A stretch of 64,000 nt of DNA, taken from NCBI GenBank assembly GCA_964016885.1, contig OZ024740.1, positions 400,458,001-400,522,000 on the forward strand, given 5' to 3'. This stretch comes from Eledone cirrhosa. Taxonomy: Eukaryota. The notes beneath the pieces were generated by a model. The model saw only the letters and a program-made list of their open reading frames with translations, did no database searches and had not been told where the DNA came from. Shown here one piece after another: positions 3,690-59,303 of the stretch (its first letter is position 1; every line of letters starts with the position of its first letter). A program made the translations under genes and the position numbers.

Positions 3690-4190
3690 ACACTTGATAA
3701 ACACCCAGACCTTTATAGAAATAATTGATAGGCACTTTTTGATTAGCTATACCTACCAGAAACTTTTTAAGAAATATAATCTAAAAGTTAGCTATAATTC
3801 TGCTTCTAACATGAAAAGTATAATTGTGCATATGTTTACAGCGAGGTTTGTTGCTTCTACAGGAAGTGAATTGTGCTATTGTTTATGAGGCAGAAGGTAT
3901 ATTGACAAAGACGGACGGCACCACTAGCCTAAAAGGCTAGTGGTGCCGTCCGTCTTTGGTATAATGGAAGATAAATCAAGGTGAGGTCTAAAAAACAGAC
4001 TTCCTTCTTCAGCTAGATGTATAAACACAAATCAACGAGATTCTTAATATAAGCCTGCAATATAAAAGAAAGGAAGATTGTTGTCCTGTTAGCTAAAAAG
4101 ATACTAATTCTCACCAGCTCAACAATACGCCGCCCTAGCTTAAACGTAAAATGTCAAGAACACAACATCAGGCACTTCTCTGAAACGCGT
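3690..4190 (+). pseudogene. Decayed Penelope-like element remnant (RT C-terminal linker, possible GIY-YIG region)
   Basis: Translation FIEIIDRHF...QKLFKKYNLKVSYNSASNMKSII resembles the PLE linker motif (recalled as IDKHF...[22 protein letters not shown]); downstream sequence is heavily decayed. Confidence 0.5.
3906..3958. repeat. Perfect 25-bp inverted repeat (hairpin) with AAA loop
   Basis: caaagacggacggcaccactagcct (3906-3930), aaa, aggctagtggtgccgtccgtctttg (3934-3958). Confidence 0.95.
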
Positions 4191-6986: not shown

Positions 6987-7188
6987 AATAATAATAATAA
7001 TTGTTTCTACTATTGGCACAAGGCCAGCAATTACCCAGTGTATTACTGGTACTTTATTTTATCGACCCCATAAGGATGGAAGGCAAAGTTAACCTCGGCG
7101 GGATTTGAACTCAGAATGGCAAGGGCCGTAACTCCATGCGCCAAAGCATGGCGTCCGACCCTCTACCGATACTGCCAATTCACTGCCC
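6987..7188 (-). mobile_element. tRNA-derived SINE, main family (short-tail form), full length
   Basis: Reverse complement has A-box (tggcagtatcggtaga), B-box (gagttcaaatccc), central domain gccgaggttaactttgccttccatccttatggggtcgataaaataaagtaccagt and (ATT)n tail; about 25 homologues in the window. Confidence 0.92.
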
Positions 7189-7189
7189 A

Positions 7190-7815
7190 AAAGGCCAGCA
7201 CCAGCCTACAGGCACATACTCAGAGTAAACCCATTCATACGGGTTATTTTTTTAATATTCACTCACCTTTTAGCAAATGTGCTAGGGAGGCAGCACTTCT
7301 CTTCCGGCCTCGCGTTTCTTTCCAAGTGAAACTTGAAAAAGTTGATGAGGGATTAGCCAAAGTGAAAAGTGTGTGTCTTCAGTCCTTTCAACCCATTCCA
7401 CTCTTCGCTACCGTCACGAGACTGAGGAAAATTGGCTGCCTTGTCTGATCAAAAGAAGGCGGTGGGCCGATCTTTACTATGGACTCGGTCGATAGCCGGA
7501 TCCGTCCTACACGCGAGAAAATCTGTTCGTCATAACTCCACAAGTCAATAATACACTGACACTGGACAAGTGCCTGCAGAACGGTATCGTCGCTCTGCGT
7601 GCATCTCGGGCAGGTCCACCAGACAGCCCTTCCCTGCATCTAGAGTTTAACTCGAACCGGCGGTGGCCCTTTACCCGGTAGCACTGCCAAGCGAGGGGTT
7701 TCTGGAAGTCATCCATAGTCCCCGTCTCGAAAGTCTTCCGGGACAGGCTGGTTAGATCGATTTCGTCGACGCCCAGAGACTCCCCGAGAGTGTCGTCGCT
7801 CTTGCCCACCACTAA
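7190..7815 (-). mobile_element. Tx1/L1-type LINE ORF2 C-terminal fragment
   Basis: Translations MDDFQKPLAWQCYR, CPRCTQSDDTVLQALVQC and GRIRLSTESIV match the C-terminus of the element at 58730-59340. Confidence 0.9.
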
Positions 7816-7909
7816 CTCAGACTAAACCAGAGCCCGAGCATCTTGACCAATCAGATGCTCCGGCGTCCGGCGTCGCTGCTGAACGGCATAGATTTACCTC
7901 TCAAGGCAC

Positions 7910-7998
7910 CTGGATTTATGTCGAACCGATGTTGTTGCGTGTAGGACGGATCCGGCTATTGTCCAAGTCCATAGTGAAGATGGCCCCACCATCTTCTT
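7910..7998 (+). mobile_element. Short plus-strand Tx1 ORF2 fragment, inverted relative to 7455-7545
   Basis: tggatttatgtcgaac...taggacggatccggctat...agtccatagtgaagat matches 58990-59080. Confidence 0.75.
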
Positions 7999-8224
7999 AT
8001 GGCAGCTCCCTTGGATGTCGGTCCGTTTAGGCACAGAACTGTACAAAAACTTCAAATAAAGTTTCAGAAACAAAACTCACAGAACAAACACCCCGTTGTG
8101 CAAAGTTCAGAAATCAATAATTATAGTTTCTGATTTAGGCTCAAGGCCAACAATTTTGAGGGAGGTGAGTGTCGATTAAATCAACCACATTGTGTTACTA
8201 TTGTGTAGTTGAATGATATAGATG

Positions 8225-10110
8225 GTGTATATATCTAGACTGTGTATATATCTAGACTGTTGTATATATCTAGACTGATGTATATATCTAGACTGTGTAT
8301 ATATCTAGACTGTTGTATATATCTAGACTGTGTATATATCTAGACTGTTGTATATATCTAGACTGTGTATATATCTAGACTGATGTATATATCTAGACTG
8401 TGTATATATCTAGACTGATGTATATATCTAGACTGTGTATATATCTAGACTGTTGTATATATCTAGACTGTGTATATATCTAGACTGATGTATATATCTA
8501 GAGTGATGTATATATCTAGACTGTTGTATATATCTAGACTGTGTATATATCTAGACTGTTGTATATATCTAGACTGTGTATATATCTAGACTGTTGTATA
8601 TATCTAGACTGATGTATATATCTAGACTGTGTATATATCTAGACTGTTGTATATATCTAGACTGTGTATATATCTAGACTGATGTATATATCTAGAGTGA
8701 TGTATATATCTAGACTGTTGTATATATCTAGACTGTGTATATATCTAGACTGTTGTATATATCTAGACTGTGTATATATCTAGACTGTTGTATATATCTA
8801 GACTGATGTATATATCTAGACTGATGTATATATCTAGACTGTGTATATATCTAGACTGTTGTATATATCTAGACTGTGTATATATCTAGACTGTGTATAT
8901 ATCTAGACTGTTGTATATATCTAGACTGATGTATATATCTAGAGTGATGTATATATCTAGACTGTTGTATATATCTAGACTGTGTATATATCTAGACTGT
9001 TGTATATATCTAGACTGTGTATATATCTAGACTGTTGTATATATCTAGACTGATGTATATATCTAGACTGTTGTATATATCGAGACTGTTGTATATATCT
9101 AGACTGATGTATATATCTAGACTGATGTATATATCTAGACTGATGTATATATCTAGACTGTTGTATATATCTAGACTGTGTATATATCTAGACTGTTGTA
9201 TATATCTAGACTGTGTATATATCTAGACTGTGTATATATCTAGACTGTTGTATATATCTAGACTGATGTATATATCTAGAGTGATGTATATATATAGACT
9301 GTTGTATATATCTAGACTGTGTATATATCTAGACTGTTGTATATATCTAGACTGTTGTATATATCTAGACTGTTGTATATATCTAGAGTGATGTATATAT
9401 CTAGACTGATGTATATATCTAGACTGATGTATATATCTAGACTGTTGTATATATCTAGACTGATGTATATATCTAGACTGTTGTATATATCTAGACTGTT
9501 GTATATATCTAGACTGATGTATATATCTAGACTGTTGTATATATCTAGACTAGATATGTATATATCTAGTCTGATGTATATATCTAGACTGATGTATATA
9601 TCTAGACTATTGTATATATCAAGACTGTTGTATATATCTAGACTGTTGTATATATCTAGACTGATGTATATATCTAGACTGATGTATATATCTAGACTAT
9701 TGTATATATCAAGACTGTTGTATATATCTAGACTGATGTATATATCTAGACTATTGTATATATCAAGACTGTTGTATATATCTAGACTGATGTATATATC
9801 TAGACTGTTGTATATATCTAGACTAGATATGTATATATCTAGACTGATGTATATATCTAGACTGATGTATATATCTAGACTGTTGTATATATCTAGACTG
9901 TTGTATATATCTAGACTGTTGTATATATCTAGACTAGATATGTATATATCTAGACTGATGTATATATCTAGACTGATAGGTATATATCTAGACTGTTGTA
10001 TATATATCTAGACTTATATGTATATATATCTAGACTGATGTGTATATATCTAGACTGATGTATATATCTAGACTATTGTGTATATCTAGACTGATGTGTA
10101 TATCTAGACG
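8225..10110. repeat. Minisatellite, 17-18 bp unit TG(T/TT/AT)GTATATATCTAGAC, about 100 copies
   Basis: Uninterrupted tandem array with variant units of 17, 18 and 21 bp. Confidence 0.97.
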
Positions 10111-10942: not shown

Positions 10943-11293
10943 TGAAAGACGTAAATAAGAAAGTTATGAAAATTGACTTACTTACTAAAATTTCACTCCA
11001 ACTAATTAGTTTCTGTAAGGGGATAAATATGATTAACCTCAGTGTCACGTGATTGATTCTTTTGAATTTGCCACTTGACCAAGTAGGCAGTGAATTTTTC
11101 AATGTCTTGGAATCTAGTCCCCGCTCGCTTTTTTCCATCCACTGAATTATTTTTATATAAGTTCCCAGTGTCCTCGCATTGCCTGGAAGCTTAGCTGAGA
11201 ATAGACTCCCTGATGACGTAAGGCTTCTCTATGGATACGCTCCGTAACCATATTTATCCGCTTACAGAAACTAATTAGTTGGAGTGAAATTTA
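10943..11293. mobile_element. TA-flanked fold-back element (PLE pLTR-like) with hammerhead motif
   Basis: 10988-11035 is the reverse complement of about 11245-11292; ~45-nt tail on the left arm; (TA)n on the left and tatata on the right. Confidence 0.7.
11205..11285 (+). ncRNA. Type I hammerhead ribozyme-like motif
   Basis: Stem I actcc/ggagt; CTGATGA 11210-11216; stem II gtaag/cttac plus ggata/tatcc; GAAAC; palindromic loop TAATTA; GTT triplet. Confidence 0.7.
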
Positions 11294-11491
11294 TATAATT
11301 GTTCTGCATCCCCTTGCATAGAACCACAAAGTTACTAAGACAAAGCATAGGTATACATCTGTATACATATGTTGGTAGATATGTTGGTAGATATGTTGCT
11401 GGCATAGGTATACATCTGTATACATATGTTGGTAGATATACTAATTCTTTATATATATATATATATATAATTCCGACGGAATTACTTCATT

Positions 11492-14610: not shown

Positions 14611-14611
<1 letters not shown>

Positions 14612-15008
14612 GGATATAGAATATAAATAGAAATGCAAAATATATCGCTGGCAATTAGTCTTTTACCTTAGATTTATTTGAATATCCTTAAGTTTCGAGA
14701 TAATCTCTTCTTCAGAAGGAATAAAGGGGTTAATCCAGTGTTCTAATTAGCAAGCTAGTTAGAACACTGGATTAACCCCTTAGCAAGCTAATTAGAACAC
14801 TGGATTAACCCCTTTACTTCATTCTGAAGAAGAGATATTATCTCGAAACTTAAGGATATTCAAATAAATCTAAGATAAAAGACTAATTGTCAGCGATATA
14901 TTTTGCATTTCTATTTATATTCTATATCCATATCTACATTGTTCTATCCTTCTAACTCCAAACGTTTATACCTCACTATGCAATGCTTCAAGTAAACTAC
15001 ACTTTCCT
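14611..15008. mobile_element. (TA)n-flanked fold-back element (PLE pLTR-like)
   Basis: 14611-14750 inverted at about 14788-14930; 33-bp tandem duplication at the centre; ~75-nt tail on the right; CTGAAGA-a-gagat-att-atctc-GAAAC-TTAAG at 14824-14854. Confidence 0.75.
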
Positions 15009-15029
15009 TATATATATTTATATATATAT

Positions 15030-15166
15030 ATAACAAAAAAGTGTGGTAAGGAACCGGGTGGACCATAACGCACCAGAGAACTCGATACTTAGGGTAGTAG
15101 AGTGGGTAGTAGGAGAAGAGTCAAGAACACGACGGCTGAGCTCCGGCCGTTTCGACTCTTTTCCTT

Positions 15167-15170
<4 letters not shown>
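15030..15170 (-). mobile_element. 3' end fragment of the hammerhead-bearing family at 29011-29273 and 33883-35081
   Basis: gtggtaaggaacc...ccataacgcaccagag...gtagtagagtgggta...gacggctgagctc...gccgtttcgac is homologous to those loci. Confidence 0.85.
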
Positions 15171-22922: not shown

Positions 22923-23550
22923 ATATATACTCGTTATACCTGAATGTATAGCTGTATCTGCGTCTGTGTACACTTTGCGACTAAATTCCCAAGGAATTAC
23001 TACCGATTGTAGGAGGATGCAAACATATGAAGGCTTAGCTAATCTCTAGGTTTAAACAGCGCGATCTAAATAAATATCACTTTCTATGATATAGTTCTTC
23101 GTTTTAAAAGACAAACTTTTCCCATGTAAAATAGTTGTGATAGTCCAGTGTTCATTTCCTAAGTGAATTATGACATAAACGTTTAGTATGCACAAACCGA
23201 AGGCGTTTGTTAGATCTATACATTATTGTTGTCTGTAAGGAATTCTCTTATTTTTTGTCGTCTTTCTTTAAAAGTTATTCTAAACACTTTACTCCATCAA
23301 ACATCTCTAAGGTGTCATGGTCTGCAATTTTACTCCTCTAATGCAGAAAATCTTTCTTGATATCACCACCCTGGAATAATCTATTGAGGAAATGGCAGCT
23401 CTCTCTACACCTACGATTATTTAATAAAATAAATCACTGCAATGTTGTTCACCCTGCCTCCATTCATTTCCCACTGCATATTGCAGCCTTAACATGGAGA
23501 GTCGACTAACTAGAAGTAGCCGTCAACTCGCTTTCAAAATACCATTAATA

Positions 23551-23889
23551 TTATGATTTCTACTAAAGACACAAGGCCAGCAATTTTGGGGGAAGGGAAA
23601 GTCGATTAAATCGACCCCAGTGCATTACTGGTACTTTATTTATCGACCCCGTAAGAATGAAAGGCAAAGTTAGCCTCGGTGGGATTTGAACTCAGACCAT
23701 AAAGGGCCGTAACTCTTTGCTGCTTTACGGCCCTTTATGGTCTGAGTTCAAATCCCGCCGAGGTTAATTTTGCCTTTCATCCTTACGGGGTCGATAAAAT
23801 AAAGTACCAGTCAGGCACTGGTGTCGATTTAATCGACATCCCCTTTTCCCCCCAATTGCTGGCGTTGTGCCTATATAAGAAACCATTAT
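23551..23889. mobile_element. Head-to-head pair of 5'-truncated main SINEs (minus 23551-23723, plus 23725-23889)
   Basis: ctcagaccataaagggccgtaa and ttacggccctttatggtctgag are perfectly inverted near the junction. Confidence 0.9.
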
Positions 23890-23904
23890 ATTAATTGGAT
23901 TTCT

Positions 23905-29010: not shown

Positions 29011-29015
<5 letters not shown>

Positions 29016-29273
29016 AGAAAATACGACCCCGACGGCAGAGGTCAAGCCGTTTCGACGGCTATTTATGGACTAAAGTAAGAGTTTTTTTAGTTTGGTAAAT
29101 AAATATCTACCAGACTAAAAAAAACTCTTACTTTAGTCCAGAAATAGCCGTCGAGACGGCTTGAGCTCTGCCGTCGGGGTCATACTTTCTCCTATTACCC
29201 ACTCTACTACCATAAGTATTGAGTACTCTGGTGCGTTATAGTCCATCTGGTTCCTTACCGCAACTTCTCCGTT
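29011..29273. mobile_element. (TA)n-flanked fold-back element, short copy of the 33883-35081 family
   Basis: Arms 29011-29100 and 29105-29195; ~78-nt tail 29196-29273; contains the 3' half of the hammerhead motif. Confidence 0.88.
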
Positions 29274-33882: not shown

Positions 33883-35078
33883 TAACGAAGGGAACGTGGT
33901 AAGAGACCAGATGTACCATAACGCACCAAAGTACTCAATACTTAGTGTAGTAGAGTGGGTAATAGGAATGAGTAGGACCCCGACGGCTGAGCTCAAGCCG
34001 TTTCGACGGCTAATTCTGGAGTAAATGAACATTTTTATCCTGGTAAATGAATAGACGAGCTTCTCAGTGGGTAATTCCATATATGGTAAAAGTGATTGTC
34101 ACAAGGATTGGTCAAAAGTTTGTTGTTGAGACACATAATTCTATCATGGCATTTTGTGGACGGAAGGGGTAGCTGAACTTGCCAGTAGAAGAAAGAGGGA
34201 GAGGGAGTGGAGGAAACCCAGTCGTGCGTTGAAAGTGACATCTACAGCAGAATCCTAAGGATAAGAGGTCAAGAGAAGTATACTAGAGAGGGGGAGGGGG
34301 GAGGAAGTCGAAACAATAAGTAAATCTATATGGAGTAAATATATAGAAAAAATAAGAATGTTAAAAATATAAAAAAACACAATTTCTGGTTACTATTCCC
34401 CTACCACAATCATCATTCTGAATTGAAATTTCGTATTAGTTTCGGGACTCTGAATTATTATTTCGTATTAGTTTTTTTTAGTATTTTGGCCTCCTACTTG
34501 TTGACCTATCATTGTAAGATAGATTTGATCGATTACTACTAACTCATAAAATTCTTTCACTAGAATCTCGTATTTAGTATTCCGTCCCACCTATTAAACT
34601 TTTCTATAGTTTAGCAGTACCGGTGAGAGATTTGATGATTGTGGTAGGGGAATAGTAACCAGAAATTGTGTTTTTTTATATATTTAACATTCTTATTTTT
34701 CTATATATTTACTCCATATAGATTTACTTATTGTTTCGACTTCCTCCTCCCTCCCCCTCTCTAGTATACTTCTCTTGACCTCTTATCCTTAGGATTCTGC
34801 TGTAGTTGTCACTTTCAACGCACGACTGGGTTTCCTCCACTTCCTCACCCTCTTTCTTCTACCGGCAAGTTCAGCTAACCCTTCCTTCCACAAAATGCCA
34901 TGATAGAATTATGTGTCTCAACAACAAACTTTTGACCAATCCTTGTGACAATCACTTTTACCATATATGGAATTACCCCCTGAGAAGCTCGGCTATTCAT
35001 TTACCAGGATAAAAATGTTCATTTACTCCAGAATTAGCCGTCGAAACGGCTTGAGCTCAGCCGTCGGGGTCCTACTCA

Positions 35079-35081
<3 letters not shown>
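33883..35081. mobile_element. Large (TA)n-flanked fold-back element: ~450-bp inverted arms, ~217-bp spacer, ~83-nt one-sided tail
   Basis: 33966-34415 is the reverse complement of 34633-35081 with few mismatches. Confidence 0.92.
34975..35070 (+). ncRNA. Type I hammerhead-like motif with variant core (mirror copy on minus strand at about 33977-34072)
   Basis: Stem I acccc/ggggt; core CTGAGAAG (not canonical CTGANGA); stem II cggcta/tagccg; GAAA; stem III acggct/agccgt with loop TGAGCTC; GTC triplet. Confidence 0.6.
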
Positions 35082-35137
<56 letters not shown>

Positions 35138-39992: not shown

Positions 39993-41364
39993 AATATTTA
40001 TTACATCGTGTTGTTTAGATTTTGCTTTACTATTTTTTTATATGGTTTAAACACCTCATGTTAGTTTTTTTTACCTGTTTATATCAATTGTTTGAGTTGC
40101 TTAGTATAAAGCTCTAAATTCTGGTTTTAATTATTAATTAGTTTAGGCTGTGAGCCCATTTCGTTTAGGGTTTATAACTGTTAAATTAATAATTGGTGGT
40201 TTCTTTATACGGTTCATTGTCTTGTTGCTTGTTTACCTTTTTAGCTTGTCTTAACTGATCGTTAAGTAAGTTGTTGGTTTCGGGAATGATGTGGATTCGG
40301 TTGATAGGTAATTTTGAATTTTTGTTTTATACAGTTATGATTCTTATCGTTAAGCGAGTTGATTGTATCGGCGAGAATTTCTGTTTTGATATTAGTGGAA
40401 TATGACGCTGCGAGTGAACATAAAATAATTTTCCTTTCGGATCGGTTCTTATTCGTTGATGGTATAATACTGGAATTTGTTAATTTGTGTTTGTTCTGTT
40501 TCTGTTTAAGTGTAATACTGATTACATAAAGAAGTATGGAGGCTTTAGCTACATAAAAATCACATAACGTGACGTTTGAAGTTTGAAGGCGTCTGCCACC
40601 CTTGTACCACTAGTTGGCATTGGGTTGGTTATTGTTAAGTAGTTAGGTGTGTTTAATATATAGATGACAATTGTTCCTGGATAGCATGGGTCAGTGGTCA
40701 CTCTGACTGCGGCTATAATAAGTCAATTAACAATTATATATACATTATATATATATATATAAATCAGAATGGAATCAGTTTGAAATTGATTAGGCCATTA
40801 CTCAACAGAGTACTAGAGACTTTCGGAATTAAAGTATGGCTATATTATAAAGAGTCGGGACTCGACGGCTAAGCTCTTGCCATTTGAACAGCTAGTTATA
40901 TATATATATAGTATAAGAATATCACCGAATTTATTTCAACGATCTACGGTCACTACCTACTCACTCGACGAGAGAATAAACTTGCAATTAAAAAACTGCA
41001 AATTATCATAAGATCAGACTGCACAGAATTAGTTAATTAGTGGGAAAGATGGCACAGTTTTGGTAAGGATACCTCCGTATCAAATTCTTAGAAGTATCGC
41101 GTTTCTGCGCAGTATTCTGTCTATAGCAGTTATTAAAATTGTAATTCGCAGAGAATTGCATACTAGCAGCAGACATCACATACTTTTGACTGTTGCACGT
41201 CATAAGCAGGCTGTCCATCTCAACATTTCAGTCTTTAAAGCAAACACAACTGCACAGAATCATAGCTTGACGAAATCTAGCTGTTCGATGTTGCCGTGAC
41301 ACGTGACCTCTAAAAAAGACCAAGACCTTCAGTTCAGAAAAAAGCTGGAATTCGTTGCTTGTGC

Positions 41365-48852: not shown

Positions 48853-50600
48853 ATTCTTCTTTCATTGGCCACAAGGGCCGAAACATATAAGACAATACAA
48901 AAGAAAAAGACAGTGTGAATTTACAAAAAATTGAAAATGTCTAAACAAACAAAACAAATAAAAAACAATAAATTGATATCCAACCTTATCAAAAAGAGCA
49001 CCATCGGATGGTGCACCTCTTCTCCGTAAACTCTCAAGCCTACTGGCGAGTGATCAGAGTAAGTCCATCCACTCCGGCCATTCTCACTACATTCACTTAC
49101 CTTTTAACATAAGTACTGGGAGGGGTGGGGAAGTACTTCCCTCTCTACACATAATTTCATTTCCAACCGGAACTTGATAAAGTTGATGAAAGCTTGGCCG
49201 AAGAGGAAAGTGCCTGTCTTCAGTCATTTGAAATGCGCCCATTACATAACTTGTTTCGCTACATCTCTCAGACAGAGGAAAGTTGCCTGCATTTCTGGTC
49301 CAAAAGAAAGTGGCGGGGTCATCTTCACGATGGCCTCCATCAATTGCCGGATCCCTCCTGCACGCGATATTAGGTGTTCGACAAATTACATGTCAGCAAT
49401 GCTTGTACACTGAACGAGTGCATGTAGAACGGTTTTATTGCTCTACGTGCATCTCAGATAGGTCCGACTGACAGCAGATCCGAGCCTGTAGTTTTTGTCT
49501 GAAACTGGGAGTGCCCCTCCGGCGCGATATACTTGGCGTCCCCTGTGCCTGATCTTCCATGGATAGATCCCTCTCGGCCCATTTCTGAGTAAGACTGGCC
49601 ATTCTAGTCGTTCTTTGCCTCCGTTCCTACCCACCTGGAGGACGGAACCAAACCAGTCCCGGGAAACCTCACCGATGAATATGAGTCCGGGACGCTTTTC
49701 AATGGCATGGATTTTCCTCTTCCGGTGTCGAGCTGCAAAACCACGGACTTTTCCCTGTTGCTCCCGTTCACCATAAAGTTGCCGACCATCTCAATTTCTG
49801 AGGTGTTAGACACCATCGTGGTGACGTTTTCCGCAGCCTTGTCACGTCCCTGTTCCAGCGGAACGTCATGTACCTGTTCCAGCTTCCACAGTAGTGGCTA
49901 GAGATTATGTACCTACAGAAGGAAGGAGAGGGCATTGAAAACTCGAGCGCAAGATCTGGAACGGTTCCGATATGTGACCATTTACTTTAACCACCGAGCA
50001 GATGCCGTTGTGCATTGCGGACAGCTTCCAATTAAAGATGCTCAAGCTTATCGAAAGCTTTCGTTTGATCTGAATTGATTAGTCTCACCAAAGCCAGGAT
50101 TTCTCTCTACCCTTTCAAAGATATATCGCATAAGGTTGGCGGTTTCGTGTGTGGACATGATCTGCATTGCGCACGTCTTCGCCTCTCCTACCAGGCATTT
50201 GATTACATGCGCCACTTGGCCACTTGGCGAAAATCTTAAACTATGTGTTAAACTGAGTTATGGGCTGGAAATTAACAATAACGTCCCACCTTTTCTCGTC
50301 TTTCCTCGTCAATAGACAGCTTCGAGGACACCAAAAAACAAGTCTGGCATGTTTACGAAACTTTCATAGACAGAAACACCCAAACCAGGCGATTTGGACC
50401 TCTTACAACGGGCCTGTACTACCCGTATCCCGGCTGTTGTTATTAGCTTCTCACATCACACAGCATCTTCCGTCACGAAACTCCGTCGAGTTAGGAATTG
50501 TAGTCCGCTACCCGCTCTGACCTCTTGCTCGCCCAGAACAGTTGTCCAAAGAGCTGCTGAAAAGTGGTGTTTTTTAAGCTGTGCTTACTATTGAGGCAAC
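48853..50600 (-). mobile_element. Decayed Tx1/L1-type LINE, internally deleted
   Basis: Minus strand: 3' end ggcccttgtggccaatgaaagaagaattatt; NREKSVVLQLDTGRGKSMP matches NQEKSVGLQLGTWRGRSMP; LINSDQTKAFDKL RT motif near 50050-50090. Confidence 0.82.
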
Positions 50601-50962: not shown

Positions 50963-51178
50963 TGATGATTTCCACTATAGGCACAAGGCCAGCAATTTGA
51001 AAGGGAGGGGAAAGTAGATTTATCGAGCCCAATGAATAACTGGTGCATTAGTTTATCGATCCTGTAAGGATGAAAGGCAAAACTAACCTAAGCGGGATTT
51101 GAACTCAGAAGGTAAAAGGCCGTAACCCCATGCTGCAAAGCACGTCTAACGCCCTACAGATACTGCCAATCGATCGCA
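50963..51178 (-). mobile_element. Main SINE (long-tail form), diverged
   Basis: Homology to the family. Confidence 0.85.
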
Positions 51179-51182
51179 GACA

Positions 51183-51255
<73 letters not shown>

Positions 51256-54200
51256 CACCCGGGTCAAAAAGGGCCGCGTCCCTCAGAGAGGAACCAGACT
51301 GGGGTCGAAAAATCAGCTAATGGTTCAAACCTTCCCATCACTTCGGAGCTGGAGACCTCCCATAACCGGAATACTCCTACTGTTGGCCCTTCATGCTCAC
51401 CACCAAGAAATCCAAAGAAAAAGAGAGAAAAATGGTCAAAGGAAGATAATAAAGAAGTCCTTGAGGCTTTCTACACTGCCATGTACTACCCATCAAATAC
51501 ATCGAATACAGAACAGACATATATCAACTGGAAAAAGAAACATCCCGAAAACAGAAGCTATATTAACAGTAACAAACTAGCCAATATACGAAGAAATATT
51601 GTAAAAAAAAAGTTACTAACTGATATAGAAATTGATCAGATCAAGCTATTAGCACAAAGTCAGCGAAGGGAAAATGAAACATGTGTCAGTGAAAACGAGG
51701 TAAATTGTAACACTTCGAATCCCAGGGTTGGGGCGGAATCACTGACAACAGAACAAATTAAAGAAAGGATCGAAAAAGTGGAGGGAGTGCATGCTCAAGA
51801 TGAAACTCAAAATGAAAACAATGAGATCGTAAATGATAAAGAAATGAATGAGAATGAACTTGCCAACTTGAAGGATGAAATTATGATCGAATGGATGAGA
51901 ATGAAAGGATCTGACATGGGGGAACGAGACACCCTCCCTAAGATCCAGAACTCCAAACAGAACCAAAAGATAATACAGAAGACTAACATAATTCTCAAAA
52001 ACATTATCATCACAAACAAACTAAACATTACTGATTTAAATCATCTCTATTATACATCGGCTAAAGTCACCACTCACTTATGTGAAGTGAAAATGAAAAA
52101 AACAAAGGAATTCCCACAAGAAATCTACTTGGCAAGAGAACATCAATCGCCAAATAAACCTTCTCCAATCTGACATATGAATTTTAACAAACTATAAAGT
52201 AGGTGTACATGTTAAACAAACTAAACTTAGAAAATTGAAAAGAAAGTACAGTATAAAATCAACAAGTGACATAGACATGCTGACAGAAATAATCAAGCAA
52301 AAAGTGTCGGCCAAAGCTGCTCGTATAAGGCGCTTTGAAAAACGATCTAGATTCTATAAGGACAATAATATGTTCAAAAACAACCAATGAAACTTCTACA
52401 GAAAAATTGGTAAGTCAACAATAACTGCTAAATCAATACCACCCAAGGAGGAAGTGCAAGAATTCTGGGAAAAGATCTGGGCCGAAGAAAAAGTTCATAA
52501 TATACATGCCCCATGGATAGACAGACAAATGAAAGATACAGCTCACCTTGAGGAACAAATATGGGAAAATATAACAGTTGAACAGTTGCGTTTGGCTCTT
52601 AGAAAAACCAGCAAATGGAAATCCCCAGGAAAAGACAAAATACAAAATGTTTGGATAAATGCCTTCACAGAGTCTCATGAGCTGTTAGCCCAACTTTACA
52701 ATGAAATAGTTAAGGAGCCAGAAAAGATACCATCATGGCTAGTTAACGGCATTACATTCCTGCTTCCGAAGAATGATGAGACAAACAATCCCAAAAATTA
52801 CAGACTGCTAACTTACTTGACCACAATGTATAAAATTTTAACATCAGTCCTAACTGAATATACATATGACCACCTGATAACAAATGACCTATTTCCCATT
52901 GAGCAGAAAGGGTGTAAACGAGGCTGTAAGGATCAGCTTTTGGTTAACAAAATGATACTGGATGATTGTCATAATAGACACAAAAATCTATCAATTGCTT
53001 GGATAGATTATAAAAAAGCATTCGATAGTTTGCGACACAGTTGGATTGAAAAATGTTTAGAGATTTTCAAAATATCTCCCGTTGTCAGGAGGTTTTTGTC
53101 ATTCAGTATGAAGACATGGAAAACGACACTCCTTTTGAATAGTGAAACAAAATCACTGGCAGCAGGAGAAGTTAATATTTATTGTGGAATTTTTCAGGGT
53201 GACTCTTTATCACCGCTTTTATTCTGCATCGCACTTATACCATTAAGTAAAATGCTCAATGAAACAAAACATAAAGTCTATGACAAAACCATTAATAACT
53301 TGTTCTACATGGATGACCTGAAACTATTTGCAAAAAATGATGAACAATTGCAAGGGCTATTATCCACTGTGGAACAGTTCAGTGATGACATTAAAATGGA
53401 GTTTGGACTAGATAAATGCGCCAAAGCAACGTTCACCAGAGGAAAGCTGCTGAAAAGTTCAGACATTAATCTTGATCGGGGGAATGCGATAAGAGAACTT
53501 GATCAAGAGGAAACTTACAAATATCTAGGTGTTTGTGAAGGAGACGGAATCAAGCACTCGACAATGAGGGAAAGGATAAGGAAGGATTGTTACCGCAGAG
53601 TAAGAGCAATCTTAAGAACGGAATTGAATGCAAGGAATAGGATCGATGCCATAAACACACTTGCCATATCAGTAGTAACCTACAGTTACAATGTCATCAA
53701 CTGGTCAAGCACAGAGATCCGTAGGCTCGATACAAAAATTCGAAAATTCTTAACCATGCACAGAATGCATCACCCTAAGGCAGATACAGATAGAATATAT
53801 CTCCCTAGGAAAGAAGGAGGACGTGGGTTAATCCAGTTAGACATTGCGTTGAAAACTGCAACAATTGGATTATCTACATATCTAAGGGAATCACATGATT
53901 GGATGATCAAACTCGTTTTGAAACACGAAAGCATCAAAAGATCATACTCCATTACAAAAGATGCACAAAGATACAGTAATGGACTACAAATTTCAGAAGT
54001 CCCATTTACTGCTGAAATGGAAAACACAGAACTGCAAAGAAAGAACTGCTACAGAAACTGGCTAAGAAATGGCAAGAAAAGCCTCTGTATGGAAAATACC
54101 CAGAACGAGCTAACAATCCTGATGTTGACAAAACTTTAACCCATCAGTGGTTGGCATCCTCTGGACTGAAATCGGAGACTGCAGGACTGAGTATATCAGC

Positions 54201-54834
54201 ACAAGATCAGTGTCTGCCAACAAAAAATTATCAAGCCAACTTAATAAAAAATGGATGCAGCGCATTATGCCGTGTATGTAAAAAACAACCAGAGACCATT
54301 GACCATATAATTTCAATGTGCAGTCCTATAGCTCCAACCGAATACCTAAACAGGCATGGCAGAGCTGCACAATACATACATTGGATAATGTGTAAGCATT
54401 TTGACCTGCCCCATCAAAAGAATTGGTGGGAGCATCAACCACCTCCCATACTTGAAAAAGATCATATCACAATCTTGTGGAACTTTAGCATCCAAACAGA
54501 CCGAAAAATAGATGCAAATAGACCTGATATAATACTGAAGGACTTTAAAAAGAGGGTATGCCTGCTAATTGATATGTCTGTTCCAATTGACAAGAATGTA
54601 TCTATAAAAACATTTGAAAAATTGAGCAAGTATAAGGACCTGGAGATAGAAATTGGAAAAATGTGGAAATTGAGAACTAAAACAATACCAGTGGTTGTAA
54701 GCGCTTTCGGAATGATACCTAAGGGGTCTAATGATTACTTATCGCAAATCCCAGGAAACCCGCGTATAGGAGAAATACAAAAGATAGTACTAATGAGAAC
54801 TGCCCATATACTAAGGAAGATTCTGTCAATATAA
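51256..54834 (+). pseudogene. Dong/R4 polyprotein (RT + RLE), broken into segments to 52173, 52454-54139 and 54151-54834
   Basis: IDYKKAFDS, GIFQGDSLSPLLF, YMDDLKL; CRVCKKQPETIDHIISMC; RPDII..LIDMSVP..EKLSKYKDL. Confidence 0.9.
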
Positions 54835-54979: not shown

Positions 54980-55248
54980 TAATAATAATAATAATTGTTT
55001 CTACTTTTGGCACAAGGCCAGCAATTATCCAGTACATTACTGGTACTTTATTTTATCGACCCCGTAACGATGAATGGCAAAGTTGACCTCGACGGGATTT
55101 GAACTCAGAATGGAAAGGGTTCAAATCCCGCCGAGGTAAACTTTGCCTTTCATCGTTACGGGGTCGATAAAATAAAGTACCAGTAATGTACTGGGTAATT
55201 TTTGGCCTTGTGCCAAAAGTAGAAACAATTATTATTATTATTATCATT
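54980..55248. mobile_element. Head-to-head pair of 5'-truncated main SINEs joining the two LINEs
   Basis: Minus copy to about 55118, plus copy from gttcaaatccc at about 55118; tails point outward. Confidence 0.9.
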
Positions 55249-56043
55249 GATCGGAACAAAATCCAGGCGAGTTGAACGGGCAACGGAGTCACAGATCCAA
55301 AGACCTATCGGTGCCGTCTGGGCACAAAAAACATATATAGCCCGGGGATCGAGATATTGCACTGTGGGTGTGCTCTTCGCTACACCAGAGGAAGCCAGAG
55401 CACACTCCATTGCACCACTCCGCAGCGACGAAATCACAATGATGCCCACATATTGTGGCCAGAGAGACGTAAGGTTTCGAGTAGGCCAGGTTCCACCATC
55501 AGTGGAGAGGGCGTGGCTGACGGCAGCCGTCCTCGCTGACGTTGAAGATTCAACAACCATAATCAACGTTATACGAATAAGACAGGAAAATTGGACAGGG
55601 TCGGGGATGGAGCTAATCATCCAAGCAAACCACGAAAGCGTTTAGGCCATCCCCGATGTAATAGACCTGGACGATGGCAGCCATCTACCCGTGACTGTTG
55701 AAGGTAGGCGCCCAAGGTGTCATGGATGCGGTGACAAGACGCACCTTAAGGCCCAGAATTACCAAAACAGGCACGCGTCCACCCCTTCTTCCCACGCCGT
55801 GCCCCGCAACTGGAGCAGATAAACAAACAAAGAACAGTGGCAGAAGAGAAATCACCATCCCCAACAACAAAAACACCATCTCTTCCACCACCCACAAAAC
55901 CAATGGAAAGCATACCCCTTCCTGATATAGTCAAATCGGACAAGGAGTGCGATGAGGCCGAAGAGTGGAGAACTATTCCAACAAAAAAAGGAAGAACTCC
56001 CTACCCTCATCCCCCCGAAAAAAAGAGGAAGAATGAACCTTAA
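55249..56043 (+). pseudogene. Tx1 ORF1 (gag-like) remnant with zinc knuckle
   Basis: VTVEGRRPRCHGCGDKTHLKAQ near 55690-55756; in-frame stop at 55643-55645. Confidence 0.75.
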
Positions 56044-56059
56044 AAAAAAAGAAAATGAA

Positions 56060-59000
56060 AACTGCCCGACCTCCCCCACGATCTTCGGCGACTACGCATG
56101 TACGCATCTCGCAGCCGTCCTGGATCGGGGGGTGGGGGGAGTTGCTGTGCTTTTTCGGAGAGGTTTGGATCTCGCCATACGGGCCATCTTCATGGACCCA
56201 GAAGGTAAGTTGGTGGTGCTGGACGTGACAAGCGGAGACGGGCAAGCTTTCGGGCTAGTGGCCGTCTATGCCCCGACAGGAGCAGGGGGCCTGATTTCTT
56301 CCGGCGTCTGGAGCCTTTTCTAGGAACTTTTAGTGGGCGACTGAAACGGAATCTTAGATGCACGCTGGGACTGTGTGGGATTATCGGATAGGGAAGGAGG
56401 GTGCAAGAGACTCACCAACCTGCTCAGGCGTTTTGAACTGTCTGACAGGTACCGATTATATTTCCCGAATGTGCCAATGTGGACTTAGACAAACCCCATC
56501 GGGTCATCCAGATCATATCTAGATAGAGTATTTTGTAGGGAAATAGATAGGTCTAGCATAGGCTGTCCACAATTCACGATAGTCAGCTACACAGACCACA
56601 AATTCGTGATCTGTGTGCTTGACTTAGATAGGCTTCATAGACAAGGACGCGGCTACTGGGAGCTAAACGCGTCATTACCAGCGCGCAAGGGTTACAGAGA
56701 CCGGATTAGCGAACTAGTTAAGCGGGCTTGACGAGGGCCATCGTCAACAACAAGTGGTGGTTTGCTCTGAAAAGAGCGATTAGAAGAGAGTCCATTAGGT
56801 TTAGTAAGGCTTTAGCAATAGAGAAAAATAGAGCAGTGGGAGAACTAGTTAGAAAATTAAACGAGGCGCTTAGAAAAGGCATCTCGACTGACGCACTTGC
56901 GGCGAAATTGGCCCTCGACCAATTCTTCAATGCAAAGCACGAAGGCTGCGTTGTCAGAACTAGGGTGCGTGCACTCAGACACGAGGGGACGAAAGCCGTT
57001 CAATGGGTCCGAGTGGCGGAGGCGCGTCGTGGAAACAAAGCCACGATCCGGTCTTTGGTGGACCACGACGGGCGCATGCTACTCGATTCCGGGGAAATGT
57101 GTGAAGCTTTTCAGCGACATTTCGCTCAGCTGTTTGGGGGCAGCGGTGGGCCGGATCGAGAGATGGACTTTAGTGTCTACCTCGACGGACTGCCGCGGCT
57201 CTCGGCCACTGGGGCGGAGTGTTGCGAAAAGCCGATAACAGCCGCTGAAGTACGGGAGGCAATGACTGGCTGCACAAGGGGTAAATCGCCTGGTTTGCAT
57301 GGTCTGCCCTATGAAATTTATGTACAGATGCCAGACTTGTTTGGAGGCCTCTTGGCGGACGTCTACTGTAACTGGCAACAGAACGGGAGAATTCCCAGCT
57401 CTGTGAGCCGAGGAGCGGTGGCGCTGCTGAGAAAGGATCCGAACAAGGGGGATAACATAGATAATTTCCGGCCCATAACTCTGCTAAACACAGAGTTCAA
57501 GATTTTTGCCAAGGTGCTAGCAAAGAGGTTGGTGCTTGGCGCTGGTGGTCTGGTGGGAGAGGCGCAGACATGCGCCATTCCCGACAGATGCACCGACGAC
57601 AACCTCCACCTCAAGCGGTACATCGTAGAGAGGGTAGCTAGGGAACCTGGAATGGGTGGGTCCTTGATCAATTTAGATCAGTCGAAAGCTTTCGATAGGG
57701 TTGACCATCGTTACCTAGCGGCAGTCCTGGAGGCGGCTGGCTTTGGGCCCGTTTTCAGAGGCTGGATCGCTGCCATGCACAGCGATATCTGCTCTGTGGT
57801 GAGAGTGAACGGTCGGCTTTCGGAACCGTTCAACATCATGCGCTCGGTCCGCCAAGGATATCCGCTCTCGTCCCTCTTGTACGTATTGACTCTCGAGCCA
57901 TTACTGCACAAACTGGAGACGTTGAGAGGGATCCCGCTCGAACTAGGATGCGGAAGAGCCGTTTCAGCATATACGGACGATGTCACCGTAGTGGTGTCGA
58001 ACGCCAAACACATCGAGGCGATCGGCACACACTAAGAGAATACGAAGCGGTGACAGGAGCAATGATCAACCAGGAAAAGTCAGTGGGCCTGCAGCTCGGC
58101 ACCTGGAGAGGCAGGTCCATGCCGTCCAACAGCGTCGTCGGGCGCTGGACGGACGGACCGGTTAAATTGCTAGGGGTCTGGTTCGGTCCAGACCTCCAGA
58201 CGGACAAAAACTGGGACGAGGTGACGAGCAGGGTGGCTTCTCTCACCCAGAAATGGGCGGAGAGGAAGCTATCCCTGAAAGGTCGAGCGGAGGTGGCTAA
58301 CGCCTACATCGCGTCCGTCATCTACTACCGCCTGACCGTCGTACCTTGTCCTAAGCCTCGCCTGACTGCGCTGGAGCGTTTGCTCTTTCGCTTCTTGTGG
58401 AAGGGACGCGCTCCGATGGTCAGGCGGTCCATCTGCTGTCAACACCCGCTACGTGGAGGGCTGGGCATGTCGTGGCTGATGATGCGCAGACACGCGCTCA
58501 GGCTACGACATCTCCACCTCTTCCTCGACGGTGATCAGGTGTGGTCGCCGTTTGCTAGACACGTTTTTCCCCAGCTCGTCTCCTTGACGGAGCTGCAGTC
58601 CTGGGTCAAGCGAAGGCCTAGAGGGAGCGCTTGGAGACTGGAATGTCTTCAGGCGCTCACAGCCCTCGACCAATCGGGCAATGTGATCGGTGGAAACTCC
58701 ACCTCGGCGTTCTATAGAGGATTAGTGGAGGGCAAGAGCGACGACGTACTTGGGGAAACTCTAGGCGTCGACGAAAATCAACTAGCCAATCTCTTCGGAA
58801 GAACTTTCGGGCCAGGGCCTATGGACAACTTCCAGAAATCTCTGGCCTGGCAGTGCTACCGAGGAGCCTTGCCAGTTCGGGATAAACTCTACAGGCATGG
58901 AGGTGCCGTCAGCCGGGCATGTCCGAGATGCGCGCAGGGCGACAAAACCGTCCTGCACGCACTCGTCCAGTGTCCGAAAATTGCTGACTTGTGGGTTTAT

Positions 59001-59303
59001 GTCGAACACCTGCTGTCGCGTTTAGGACGGATCCGGCTATCATCTGAGTCCATCGTGAGGATTACCCCGCCCTCCTCCTTTAGCCGGGAAGGGCAGGCAG
59101 TTTTTATCTGTCTGGTGGACATGGCGAAAGAGATAGTATGGTGGACACGTTTGAAAGGGCTGAAGACGAGCACTTACCTCTTTGGTGATGCTATGATTGA
59201 CTTTTTCAAATGTCATTTGAAAAGGAAAATCAGAGTAGAGAGGGAAGTGCTCTCTTCCCAGCATTTTGTTGAAAGATGGGTGAGAGAAGCAAGAATGGCC
59301 TGA
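56060..59303 (+). pseudogene. Tx1 ORF2 (APE endonuclease + RT + C-terminal Zn finger), disrupted
   Basis: VYAP, GD*N, SRSYLDRVF, TDHK (APE); FRPITLLN, LDQSKAFDRV, VRQGYPLS, AYTDDV (RT); CPRC..TVLHALVQC; frameshift near 58030. Confidence 0.92.

What the first reader, a model, noticed from the sequence alone, without database searches (positions are those of the whole stretch)
33883..35081. Non-coding, TA-targeting, hammerhead-bearing fold-back retroelements with a shared asymmetric architecture
Seen: four loci from three unrelated sequence families (10943-11293; 14611-15008; 29011-29273 and 33883-35081) share TA flanks, two inverted arms with 3' ends outward, a 45-85 nt tail on one arm only and a hammerhead-like motif near the arm 3' end. 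The two copies of one family have arms of about 90 and 450 bp but similar tail boundaries, which argues against a fixed-TIR MITE. Further fragments lie at 15030-15170 and about 40855-40895. Established: Penelope-like elements have inverted pLTRs, 3' tails and hammerheads. Inference: a diverse non-autonomous PLE/retrozyme-like system mobilised in trans; decayed PLE ORF remnants occur in the window. The variant core CTGAGAAG with a long stem III and the alternative hairpin agccgt-cgaa-acggct could act as a conformational switch.
Basis: partly seen in the sequence, partly recalled or inferred. Interest (0 to 1): 0.75.

Follow-up and report, generated by a model that had tools for sequence, protein, structure and literature searches.

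The report
Penelope fold-backs recording hammerhead cleavage
These mirror-image repeats are mostly cut-short copies of protein-coding Penelope-like jumping genes (one is a non-coding hitch-hiker), a known insertion form, but their two fixed ends suggest that one RNA is likely copied twice per insertion, and the smallest copies likely record the element's built-in RNA scissors cutting in living cells.

Summary
The fold-backs, TA flanks, one-sided tails and hammerhead motifs are real, but three of the four loci are not non-coding elements. 33885-35082 and 29014-29272 are 5'-truncated insertions of an autonomous Hydra-type Penelope-like element (intact 710-aa RT/GIY-YIG frame in a genomic copy); 14611-15008 belongs to a second autonomous, Penelope/Poseidon-type family. 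The architecture is published for Penelope-like elements. What the copies add: in 74 of 74 position-sampled two-armed insertions one arm ends 17 nt and the other about 97 nt past the predicted cut; in tiny fold-backs 30 of 44 unambiguous arm starts lie exactly at the cut, a likely footprint of cleavage in vivo. CTGAGAAG is a C3-A8 mismatch of a U3-A8 core, held by 1,299 of 3,860 motifs, and its subfamily gives fewer cut-ended copies (p 0.02-0.03). The 'switch' hairpin has no covariation support. This scan reported cut-site footprints and two-armed retrozymes before on other DNA of this genome. No RNA or cleavage data.

The parts
33885..35082 (.). Locus D: two-armed, 5'-truncated insertion of a Hydra-type Penelope-like element in (TA)n
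   Evidence: Arms 95-96% identical to the 3' UTR/pLTR of an endonuclease-bearing copy, L036
33885..33964 (-). 80-nt tail: leader of the next unit, ending about 90 nt before the ORF start in full copies
   Evidence: L032 and L037 run from hammerhead through tail into the ORF
33965..34415 (-). Left arm up to its 5' truncation point; hammerhead copy about 33977-34072 with one stem I and one stem II change
34415..35082 (+). Right, tail-less arm, ends 17 nt past the predicted cut; 34416-34632 is 3' UTR that the left arm lacks
34975..35070 (+). Type I hammerhead: core CTGAGAAG 34980-34987 (C3-A8 mismatch), 6-bp stem II with a 43-nt loop, GAAA 35043-35046, 5-6 bp stem III, predicted cut after 35065
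35036..35051 (+). Alternative hairpin that would hide GAAA
   Evidence: predicted probability 0.74; no two-sided change
29014..29272 (.). Locus C: short two-armed insertion of a sister subfamily (U3-A8 core in longer copies); left arm tail-less, right arm tailed; core absent here
15032..15156 (-). Tailed single-arm stub of a third sister subfamily
40841..40897 (-). Decayed tail-less stub of the same clade (74% identity, E 0.002)
14611..15008 (.). Locus B: two-armed 5'-truncated insertion of an autonomous Penelope/Poseidon-type family; minimal hammerhead-like motif, core at 14824; tail 14971-15008 is the start of the ORF
10943..11449 (.). Locus A: two-armed insertion of a 526-bp non-coding hammerhead tandem unit; left arm 10943-11035 ends at the short end, right arm 11030-11449 at the long end with a 47-nt deletion after 11292; core CTGATGA at 11210, predicted cut after 11280
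3703..3882 (+). Small decayed remnant of a Hydra-like ORF, not linked to the four loci
   Evidence: tblastn E 5e-6 to 7e-4

Best explanation
Loci D, C and B are 5'-truncated head-to-head insertions of two protein-coding Penelope-like retrotransposon families and locus A is a 526-bp non-coding hammerhead repeat with the same two-end signature, and each insertion is likely made when the element's enzyme cuts both strands of a (TA)n tract and copies one RNA twice, from two fixed start sites. Shown: family identity, two fixed 3' ends (+17 and +97 nt from the predicted cut in D/C), one of each per insertion, variable 5' ends. Inferred: the two cDNAs stop at variable points and are joined head to head; the tail is the stretch between the two start sites; if the hammerhead has already cut the RNA, both cDNAs run off at the cut and leave a tiny 17 + 97 nt fold-back, so long copies need an uncut or religated template; the C3-A8 core at 34980 cuts poorly or not at all yet its lineage spread, so cleavage is not required for transposition; family A borrows such an enzyme in trans from a multimeric or circular RNA.
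For: Intact 710-aa frame with RT and GIY-YIG motifs in L213; 12 of 23 position-sampled two-armed insertions reach the ORF; 8 of 8 long B copies (chosen for length) carry ORF pieces, Pfam RVT_1 E 4.9e-7 and GIY-YIG E 1.8e-3. One tailed plus one tail-less arm in 23 of 23 (22 by script, 1 by reading) and 51 of 51 insertions found by patterns that ignore the tail (binomial p 2e-7 and 9e-16); same core in both arms 24 of 24; 9 of 11 two-armed A insertions, and 13 of 20 A insertions with an arm longer than one unit. Arm starts at junctions with untemplated bases: 30 of 44 exactly at the cut, 8 one base inside, 0 at one or two bases upstream; of 22 tailed arms starting at the cut, the partner also starts there in 11 of 14 readable cases. 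First 100 of 3,860 full motifs, by eye: U3-A8 68 with all four bases at N7, C3-A8 30, U3-G8 2; C3-A8 1,299, C3-G8 7. Cut-ended insertions 16 of 30 in all-U3 subfamilies against 3 of 16 in the C3-rich one (p 0.03). Two RT start sites bounding the tail, both-strand cleavage and HHR-independent insertion were shown in vitro for PAc (PMC11167929).
Against: No RNA, no cleavage assay. The mini fold-back pattern cannot see arm starts more than one base downstream of the cut, so the spike is controlled on the upstream side only; about 4 of the 22 'clean' junctions may be mutated stem III joins or CpG decay. Family A shows no such footprint (0 of 31 arm starts within 3 nt of the cut). Covariation in D/C/E is a single stem II event. 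The subfamily test uses a downstream marker that is only 8 of 14 C3, and the second tally (p 0.02) overlaps the first. No partner element was found for A. PAc starts without homology, whereas here both ends fall where the element itself reads TA(T), so each end is uncertain by 2-4 nt. All samples come from the start of one chromosome.
Confidence: 0.72

Rival explanations
1. One reading: all four loci are non-coding elements of a non-autonomous system mobilised in trans.
For: True for locus A: 526-bp period, longest frame 82 codons, no attached Penelope ORF in 62 loci (one unrelated neighbour). Most D/C/B copies are short and ORF-less.
Against: Longer copies of D, C, E and B continue on the same strand into RT/GIY-YIG frames; 5' ends vary freely.
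Confidence: 0.08
2. Same elements, but arm starts at the cut come from an RT stall at stem III, a transcription start, or collapse of the centre of longer palindromes, not from self-cleavage.
Against: A stall would include the unpaired C17: 0 of 44 clean ends do; both arms stop at the same base with 1-2 untemplated A/T in many cases; an extra cap-like G is seen in only about 3 arms; the class is rarer in the subfamily with the broken core.
Confidence: 0.2
3. CTGAGAAG is an active, register-shifted core (C3 pairing with the G at position 7, no N7, one extra A), possibly gated by the alternative hairpin.
For: 96 of the first 100 C3 motifs have G at position 7 (by eye); the label needs 3-7 changes on a rough tree; hairpin probability 0.78 in C3 copies, 95.6% of cells paired.
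Against: Position 7 takes all four bases and position 8 stays A in the U3 relatives; C3-G7 linkage can be inherited; fewer cut-ended copies in the C3-rich subfamily; the U3-G7 subfamily has the hairpin too (about 0.6) yet gives 11 of 20 cut-ended insertions.
Confidence: 0.12
4. Fixed-TIR MITE or other DNA transposon.
For: Inverted arms and TA flanks.
Against: No fixed arm length, single-arm and tandem copies are common, the partner protein is an RT, and the two ends differ by a fixed tail.
Confidence: 0.01

Closest known systems
Hydra clade of C-terminal EN+ Penelope-like elements, incl. Hydra-1_Obim (Craig et al. 2021, PMC8557442: passages, section 11, supplement part 2)
   Same: DKT, RW[K/R], CxCX5C linker, no CCHH, CxxC and CxH around E/N, (TA)n target, hammerhead in the pLTR, inverted 5'-truncated copy, tail at one end.
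   Different: Unit about 3.5-4 kb with a 1.1-1.4 kb 3' UTR (published ones mostly under 3 kb); tail 80 nt (30-40 typical); every Hydra hammerhead in File S2 has a C3-G8 core and loops II of 17 nt or less, here U3-A8 or C3-A8 with a 43-nt loop; the hammerhead sequence differs from Hydra-1_Obim.
PAc (Poseidon, Anolis), Frangieh et al. 2024, PMC11167929 (parts 1-2 of 4)
   Same: Two RT start sites bounding the tail, AT-rich target, both strands cut and extended, predicted dimer, hammerhead mutants still insert; family B's tail lies in the ORF start as in PAc.
   Different: They saw no RNA ends at the cut and did not show that the two sites are used once each per insertion; start without homology there, TA(T) overlap here.
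Minimal hammerheads of Penelope-like elements (Cervera and de la Pena 2014, PMC4209133, parts 1-2 of 4)
   Same: U3-A8 core in Schistosoma Cercyon; pairs of motifs 100-700 bp apart on opposite strands; family B's palindromic stem III without loop and extra base after A9.
   Different: D/C/E have a 5-6 bp stem III closed by a loop (monomer type); a C3-A8 core in over a thousand copies is not described in the parts read.
Metazoan non-LTR retrozymes (PMC7229834, passages; Li, Clavereau, Pollet 2026, 10.64898/2026.07.22.740005, parts 1-3 of 5)
   Same: Locus A: non-coding tandem unit with one type I hammerhead, dispersed monomers to short multimers, proposed Penelope partner.
   Different: 526 bp, two opposed arms with two fixed ends 116 nt apart; expression and circles untested; the parts read do not use end signatures as evidence.

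Membership tests
EN+ Penelope-like element (loci D, C) | Single ORF with PLE-type RT and C-terminal GIY-YIG endonuclease | tested here: met
   710-aa open frame in L213 read by motif; Pfam and PDB gave no match; 31 mostly unnamed homologues at 34-50%
EN+ Penelope-like element (loci D, C) | pLTR partial tandem, inverted truncated copy, tail at one end | tested here: met
Hydra clade | DKT for DKG, RWK-type motif, CxCX5C linker, no CCHH, CxxC and CxH in EN | tested here: met
   (RWR in place of RWK), against section 11 of PMC8557442
Hydra clade | (TA)n insertion | tested here: met
   146 of 148 arm ends
Hydra clade | Canonical hammerhead | tested here: inconclusive
   Type I fold met, core is U3-A8 or C3-A8, not C3-G8
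Hydra clade | Groups with published Hydra RTs in a tree | not tested
   No tree with published proteins was built
Penelope/Poseidon clade (locus B) | GxKF and DKG motifs, RT, C-terminal GIY-YIG, minimal hammerhead | tested here: met
   6 of 26 motifs have both canonical core and palindromic stem III, the window copy does not; no tree built
Non-LTR retrozyme (locus A) | Non-coding tandem unit with a type I hammerhead in each unit | tested here: met
   526-bp period, longest frame 82 codons; two compensated stem II pairs in two diverged copies
Non-LTR retrozyme (locus A) | Self-cleavage, expression and circular RNA | not testable with these tools
   No run search was made with locus A; arms longer than one unit fit a circle or a multimer
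Non-LTR retrozyme (loci B, C, D) | No coding capacity in the family | tested here: not met
MITE | Fixed TIRs, uniform length, transposase partner | tested here: not met
Hammerhead ribozyme, type I (34975-35070) | Three stems, G5 A6 A9, GAAA, UH site | tested here: met
Hammerhead ribozyme, type I (34975-35070) | Watson-Crick pair between positions 3 and 8 | tested here: not met
   C3-A8 in this copy; U3-A8 in 68 of the first 100 relatives
Hammerhead ribozyme, type I (34975-35070) | Self-cleavage | not testable with these tools
   Only the indirect genomic footprint in sister subfamilies

The most novel reading that the evidence does not exclude
This genome holds a natural experiment on the Penelope life cycle: every insertion is one RNA copied twice from two fixed start sites; hammerhead self-cleavage happens in vivo and aborts copying into 17 + 97 nt palindromes; a lineage that lost cleavage (C3-A8, a third of full motifs) spread as well as its active sisters, so the ribozyme is dispensable or even costly to the element, while 526-nt hammerhead circles use the same two-start machinery in trans.
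Probability: 0.4. Interest if true: 0.72.

Novelty: new variant of a known kind. Interest (0 to 1): 0.5.

Why it matters
How Penelope-like elements make their inverted repeats and one-sided tail, and what their hammerheads do, are stated as open in PMC8557442 and PMC11167929. A strict one-long-end, one-short-end rule ties the two in vitro start sites to the two strands of one insertion; tiny fold-backs starting at the cut would be in vivo evidence of cleavage that RNA-seq of PAc did not give; sister subfamilies that differ by one core base give a ready-made active/inactive pair to assay. The same end rule in a non-coding repeat supports the Penelope-partner model for retrozymes by a route other than sequence likeness.

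Tried and rejected
Rfam at E up to 5: no hammerhead, only microRNA models on hairpins and microsatellites. Pfam and PDB: nothing for the Hydra-type protein. A core without N7, suggested by CTGAGAAG against TTGAAAAG, lost support when a third subfamily showed TTGATAAG; kept as a weak rival. A compensated C3-G8 subfamily: 7 scattered matches only. A-to-G editing between the arms of D: 11 substitutions of mixed kind, no bias. Partner for family A among the loci held: only other A-like copies. Arm starts at the cut in family A: 0 of 31. Run search with the D arm: no RNA holder listed; contigs of two runs of one sample cover all 30 bins of L213 and show short head-to-head joints near stem II, but may be the assembly's own sample, so not used. 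Tree of 80 rows (rows with under 130 nt of upstream homology left out): poorly resolved, no claim on the number of C3 origins. Look-ups of earlier findings by sequence or by core words: nothing. Paper searches for a C3-A8 or N7-less natural core found nothing relevant; the library lacks most older biochemical papers.

Full report
Observation. The window lies on contig C1 of a 3.0-Gb animal genome. The four fold-backs are present. Locus D has arms 97% complementary over about 450 bp; C is 79-84% like D; A and B are unrelated to D and to each other. Rfam gives no hammerhead, but a type I descriptor finds two complete motifs in 64 kb, at 11210 (A) and 34980 (D), and none in five shuffles. The predicted cut after 35065 is as stated.

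Loci D and C are pieces of a coding element. The 30 best genomic matches to the D arm (2,491 first-look candidates) have fixed 3' ends and scattered 5' ends; single arms, two-armed copies and partial tandems all occur. Longer copies run upstream through a 1.1-1.4 kb 3' UTR into an endonuclease and RT frame, and in L032 and L037 the hammerhead and tail sit directly in front of the ORF, so the tail is the leader of the next unit. L213 has a natural open frame of 710 aa with RWR, DKT, YRDD, a CxCX5C linker, YIG, CxxC and CxH and no CCHH. These are the marks of the Hydra clade in section 11 of PMC8557442, whose supplement lists an octopus member and (TA)n targets. Pfam and PDB do not recognise it; 31 longer homologues are almost all unnamed. 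I built no tree with published proteins. The arms of D are 95-96% identical to L036, and the apparent spacer is extra UTR on the longer arm. C and the stub at 15032-15156 are sister subfamilies whose longer copies also reach the ORF.

Locus B belongs to a second coding family (1,343 candidates). Eight of eight long copies, chosen for length, carry ORF pieces with GPKF, DKG and YVDD and Pfam RVT_1 and GIY-YIG hits. Its tail of about 38 nt is the ORF start. Seven other inverted arms among 30 loci end at the equivalent of 14970; the window arm is 37 nt shorter. Its motif is of the minimal type of PMC4209133, but only 6 of 26 copies combine a canonical core with the palindromic stem III, and the window copy does not.

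Locus A is non-coding. A 19-mer over its core has 1,102 exact matches. The unit is 526 bp, the longest frame 82 codons; the first 30 matches by position give 20 insertions, 13 with an arm longer than one unit and 11 two-armed, of which 9 have one short and one long end 116 nt apart; no Penelope ORF is attached in 62 loci, apart from one unrelated neighbour. Among 33 aligned motifs two diverged copies show two compensated stem II pairs and a changed N7; core conservation in the rest is biased by the search. This fits non-LTR retrozymes (PMC7229834, passages), and their derivation from Penelope-like elements is argued in 10.64898/2026.07.22.740005 (parts 1-3 of 5; supplements not seen). No partner was found among the loci held.

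The asymmetry is a rule. A pattern for the complete D/C/E motif that ignores the tail gives 3,860 matches, reversed control 0. Among the first 100 by position, 46 form 23 outward pairs. All 23 have one arm ending about 17 nt and one about 97 nt after the predicted cut (22 by script; L226 by reading); 45 of 46 ends abut TA repeats; 12 of 23 reach the ORF. Both arms carry the same core in 24 of 24 insertions, although at least five cores circulate. A second tail-blind pattern gives about 950 tiny fold-backs; all 51 loci of the first 100 rows have one tailed and one tail-less arm. A tail at only one end and an inverted truncated copy are published (PMC8557442, passages; PMC4209133), and PMC11167929 (parts 1-2 of 4) shows two RT start sites bounding the tail, extension of both strands and a predicted dimer. 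I infer that one RNA is primed twice, once per nicked strand.

A footprint of cleavage. 412 tailed ends are not preceded by the TC of the cleavage triplet; in 22 of 30 examined, foreign sequence starts exactly at the cut, 8 are mutated intact motifs; where the partner arm can be read, 11 of 14 start at the cut too. In the 51 tiny fold-backs, 22 junctions hold untemplated bases; 30 of their 44 arm starts are at the cut, 8 one base inside, none one or two bases upstream. Limits: the pattern is blind to starts further downstream, about four of the 22 may be mutated stem III joins, and about 21 of the 51 are microhomology joins in stem III. Family A shows no such spike (0 of 31). Since both start sites lie 3' of the cut, a cleaved RNA can yield only a 17 + 97 nt palindrome; long copies need an uncut or religated template (inference). 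I reached this before seeing earlier notes of the scan that report the same on other DNA of this genome; one note there disagrees.

The variant core. By eye, the first 100 motifs are U3-A8 in 68 (N7 G 29, U 15, C 13, A 11), C3-A8 in 30, U3-G8 in 2; positions 3, 7 and 8 were free in the pattern, the others fixed. Genome-wide C3-A8 has 1,299 matches and C3-G8 has 7. U3-A8 is a published Penelope variant (PMC4209133); breaking the 3-8 pair by C3G or G8C abolishes PAc cleavage but not insertion (PMC11167929); that a C-A mismatch is likewise damaging is recalled, not from a call. Subfamilies that are U3-A8 in 16 of 16 sampled arms give 16 cut-ended of 30 tiny fold-backs; the subfamily of locus D, C3-A8 in 8 of 14 arms, gives 3 of 16 (p 0.03); an overlapping hand tally gives p 0.02. 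RNAalifold recovers the three stems; one stem II pair changes on both sides in 10 of 34 rows, one event. The alternative hairpin is predicted at 0.74 here, 0.78 and 0.61 in the G7 subfamilies, 0.00-0.16 in the others, is 95.6% paired but never changes on both sides, and does not keep the U3-G7 subfamily from giving 11 of 20 cut-ended insertions. A switch is possible but unsupported. A register-shifted active core stays a minor rival because 96 of 100 C3 motifs have G7.

Literature searched. None listed a paper reporting genomic ends at a Penelope hammerhead cut, strict pairing of the two ends, or a C3-A8 core; the library is incomplete, and older papers on Penelope tails were not read. Also seen as passages only: PMC3088659, PMC7151607, PMC6765202.

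Verdict. New families and a new hammerhead variant within known kinds. Identity of the elements is secure; the mechanism (double priming, cleavage in vivo, weak C3-A8 core) is inferred from genomic copies alone. Interest 0.5.

Noticed in passing
window 23537-23902 and 54996-55227: Two fold-back copies of another, very abundant ~190-bp repeat (also at 6996, 25437, 27881, 38218, 39809, 44596, 63368); both arms point outward; no hammerhead by my descriptor.
   Followed up: no
window 51103-54834 (+): Non-LTR retrotransposon frames with RT and a restriction-like endonuclease motif (R4/Dong-like by recall).
   Followed up: no
window 55931-59303 (+), with decayed relatives at 7200-8000 and 49040-50400: L1/Tx1-like retrotransposon frames (endonuclease, RT), label by recall.
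   Followed up: no
window 3906-3958: Near-perfect GC-rich 53-bp hairpin beside the Hydra-like ORF remnant at 3703-3882.
   Followed up: no
window 8170-10010: Array of 17-18 bp units (TATATCTAGACTG core).
   Followed up: no
L124:291 (+), L064:2668 (+), L118:5589 (-), L161:426 and 965 (+), L035:131 (+), L047:8866 (+): At least eight further hammerhead families in the flanks, several with long loops II; L124 has another U3-A8 core.
   Followed up: no
L037:143-1697 (-) and L050:2829-4963 (-): A second, more distant Hydra-type family next to D-family insertions.
   Followed up: partly
L286 around 1500: A tailed arm that starts at the cut is joined to ORF sequence of the same element on the same strand: a possible template jump from the RNA 5' end.
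   Followed up: no
L152-L180; joints: Many short fold-backs turn 10-25 nt upstream of the GAAA box, in the 3' strand of stem II: a stall site or RNA start.
   Followed up: partly
L114 (family B): About 2.9 kb lie between the end of the ORF and the hammerhead in this and other B copies, long for a Penelope 3' UTR; in L114 it includes an inserted D-type mini fold-back.
   Followed up: no
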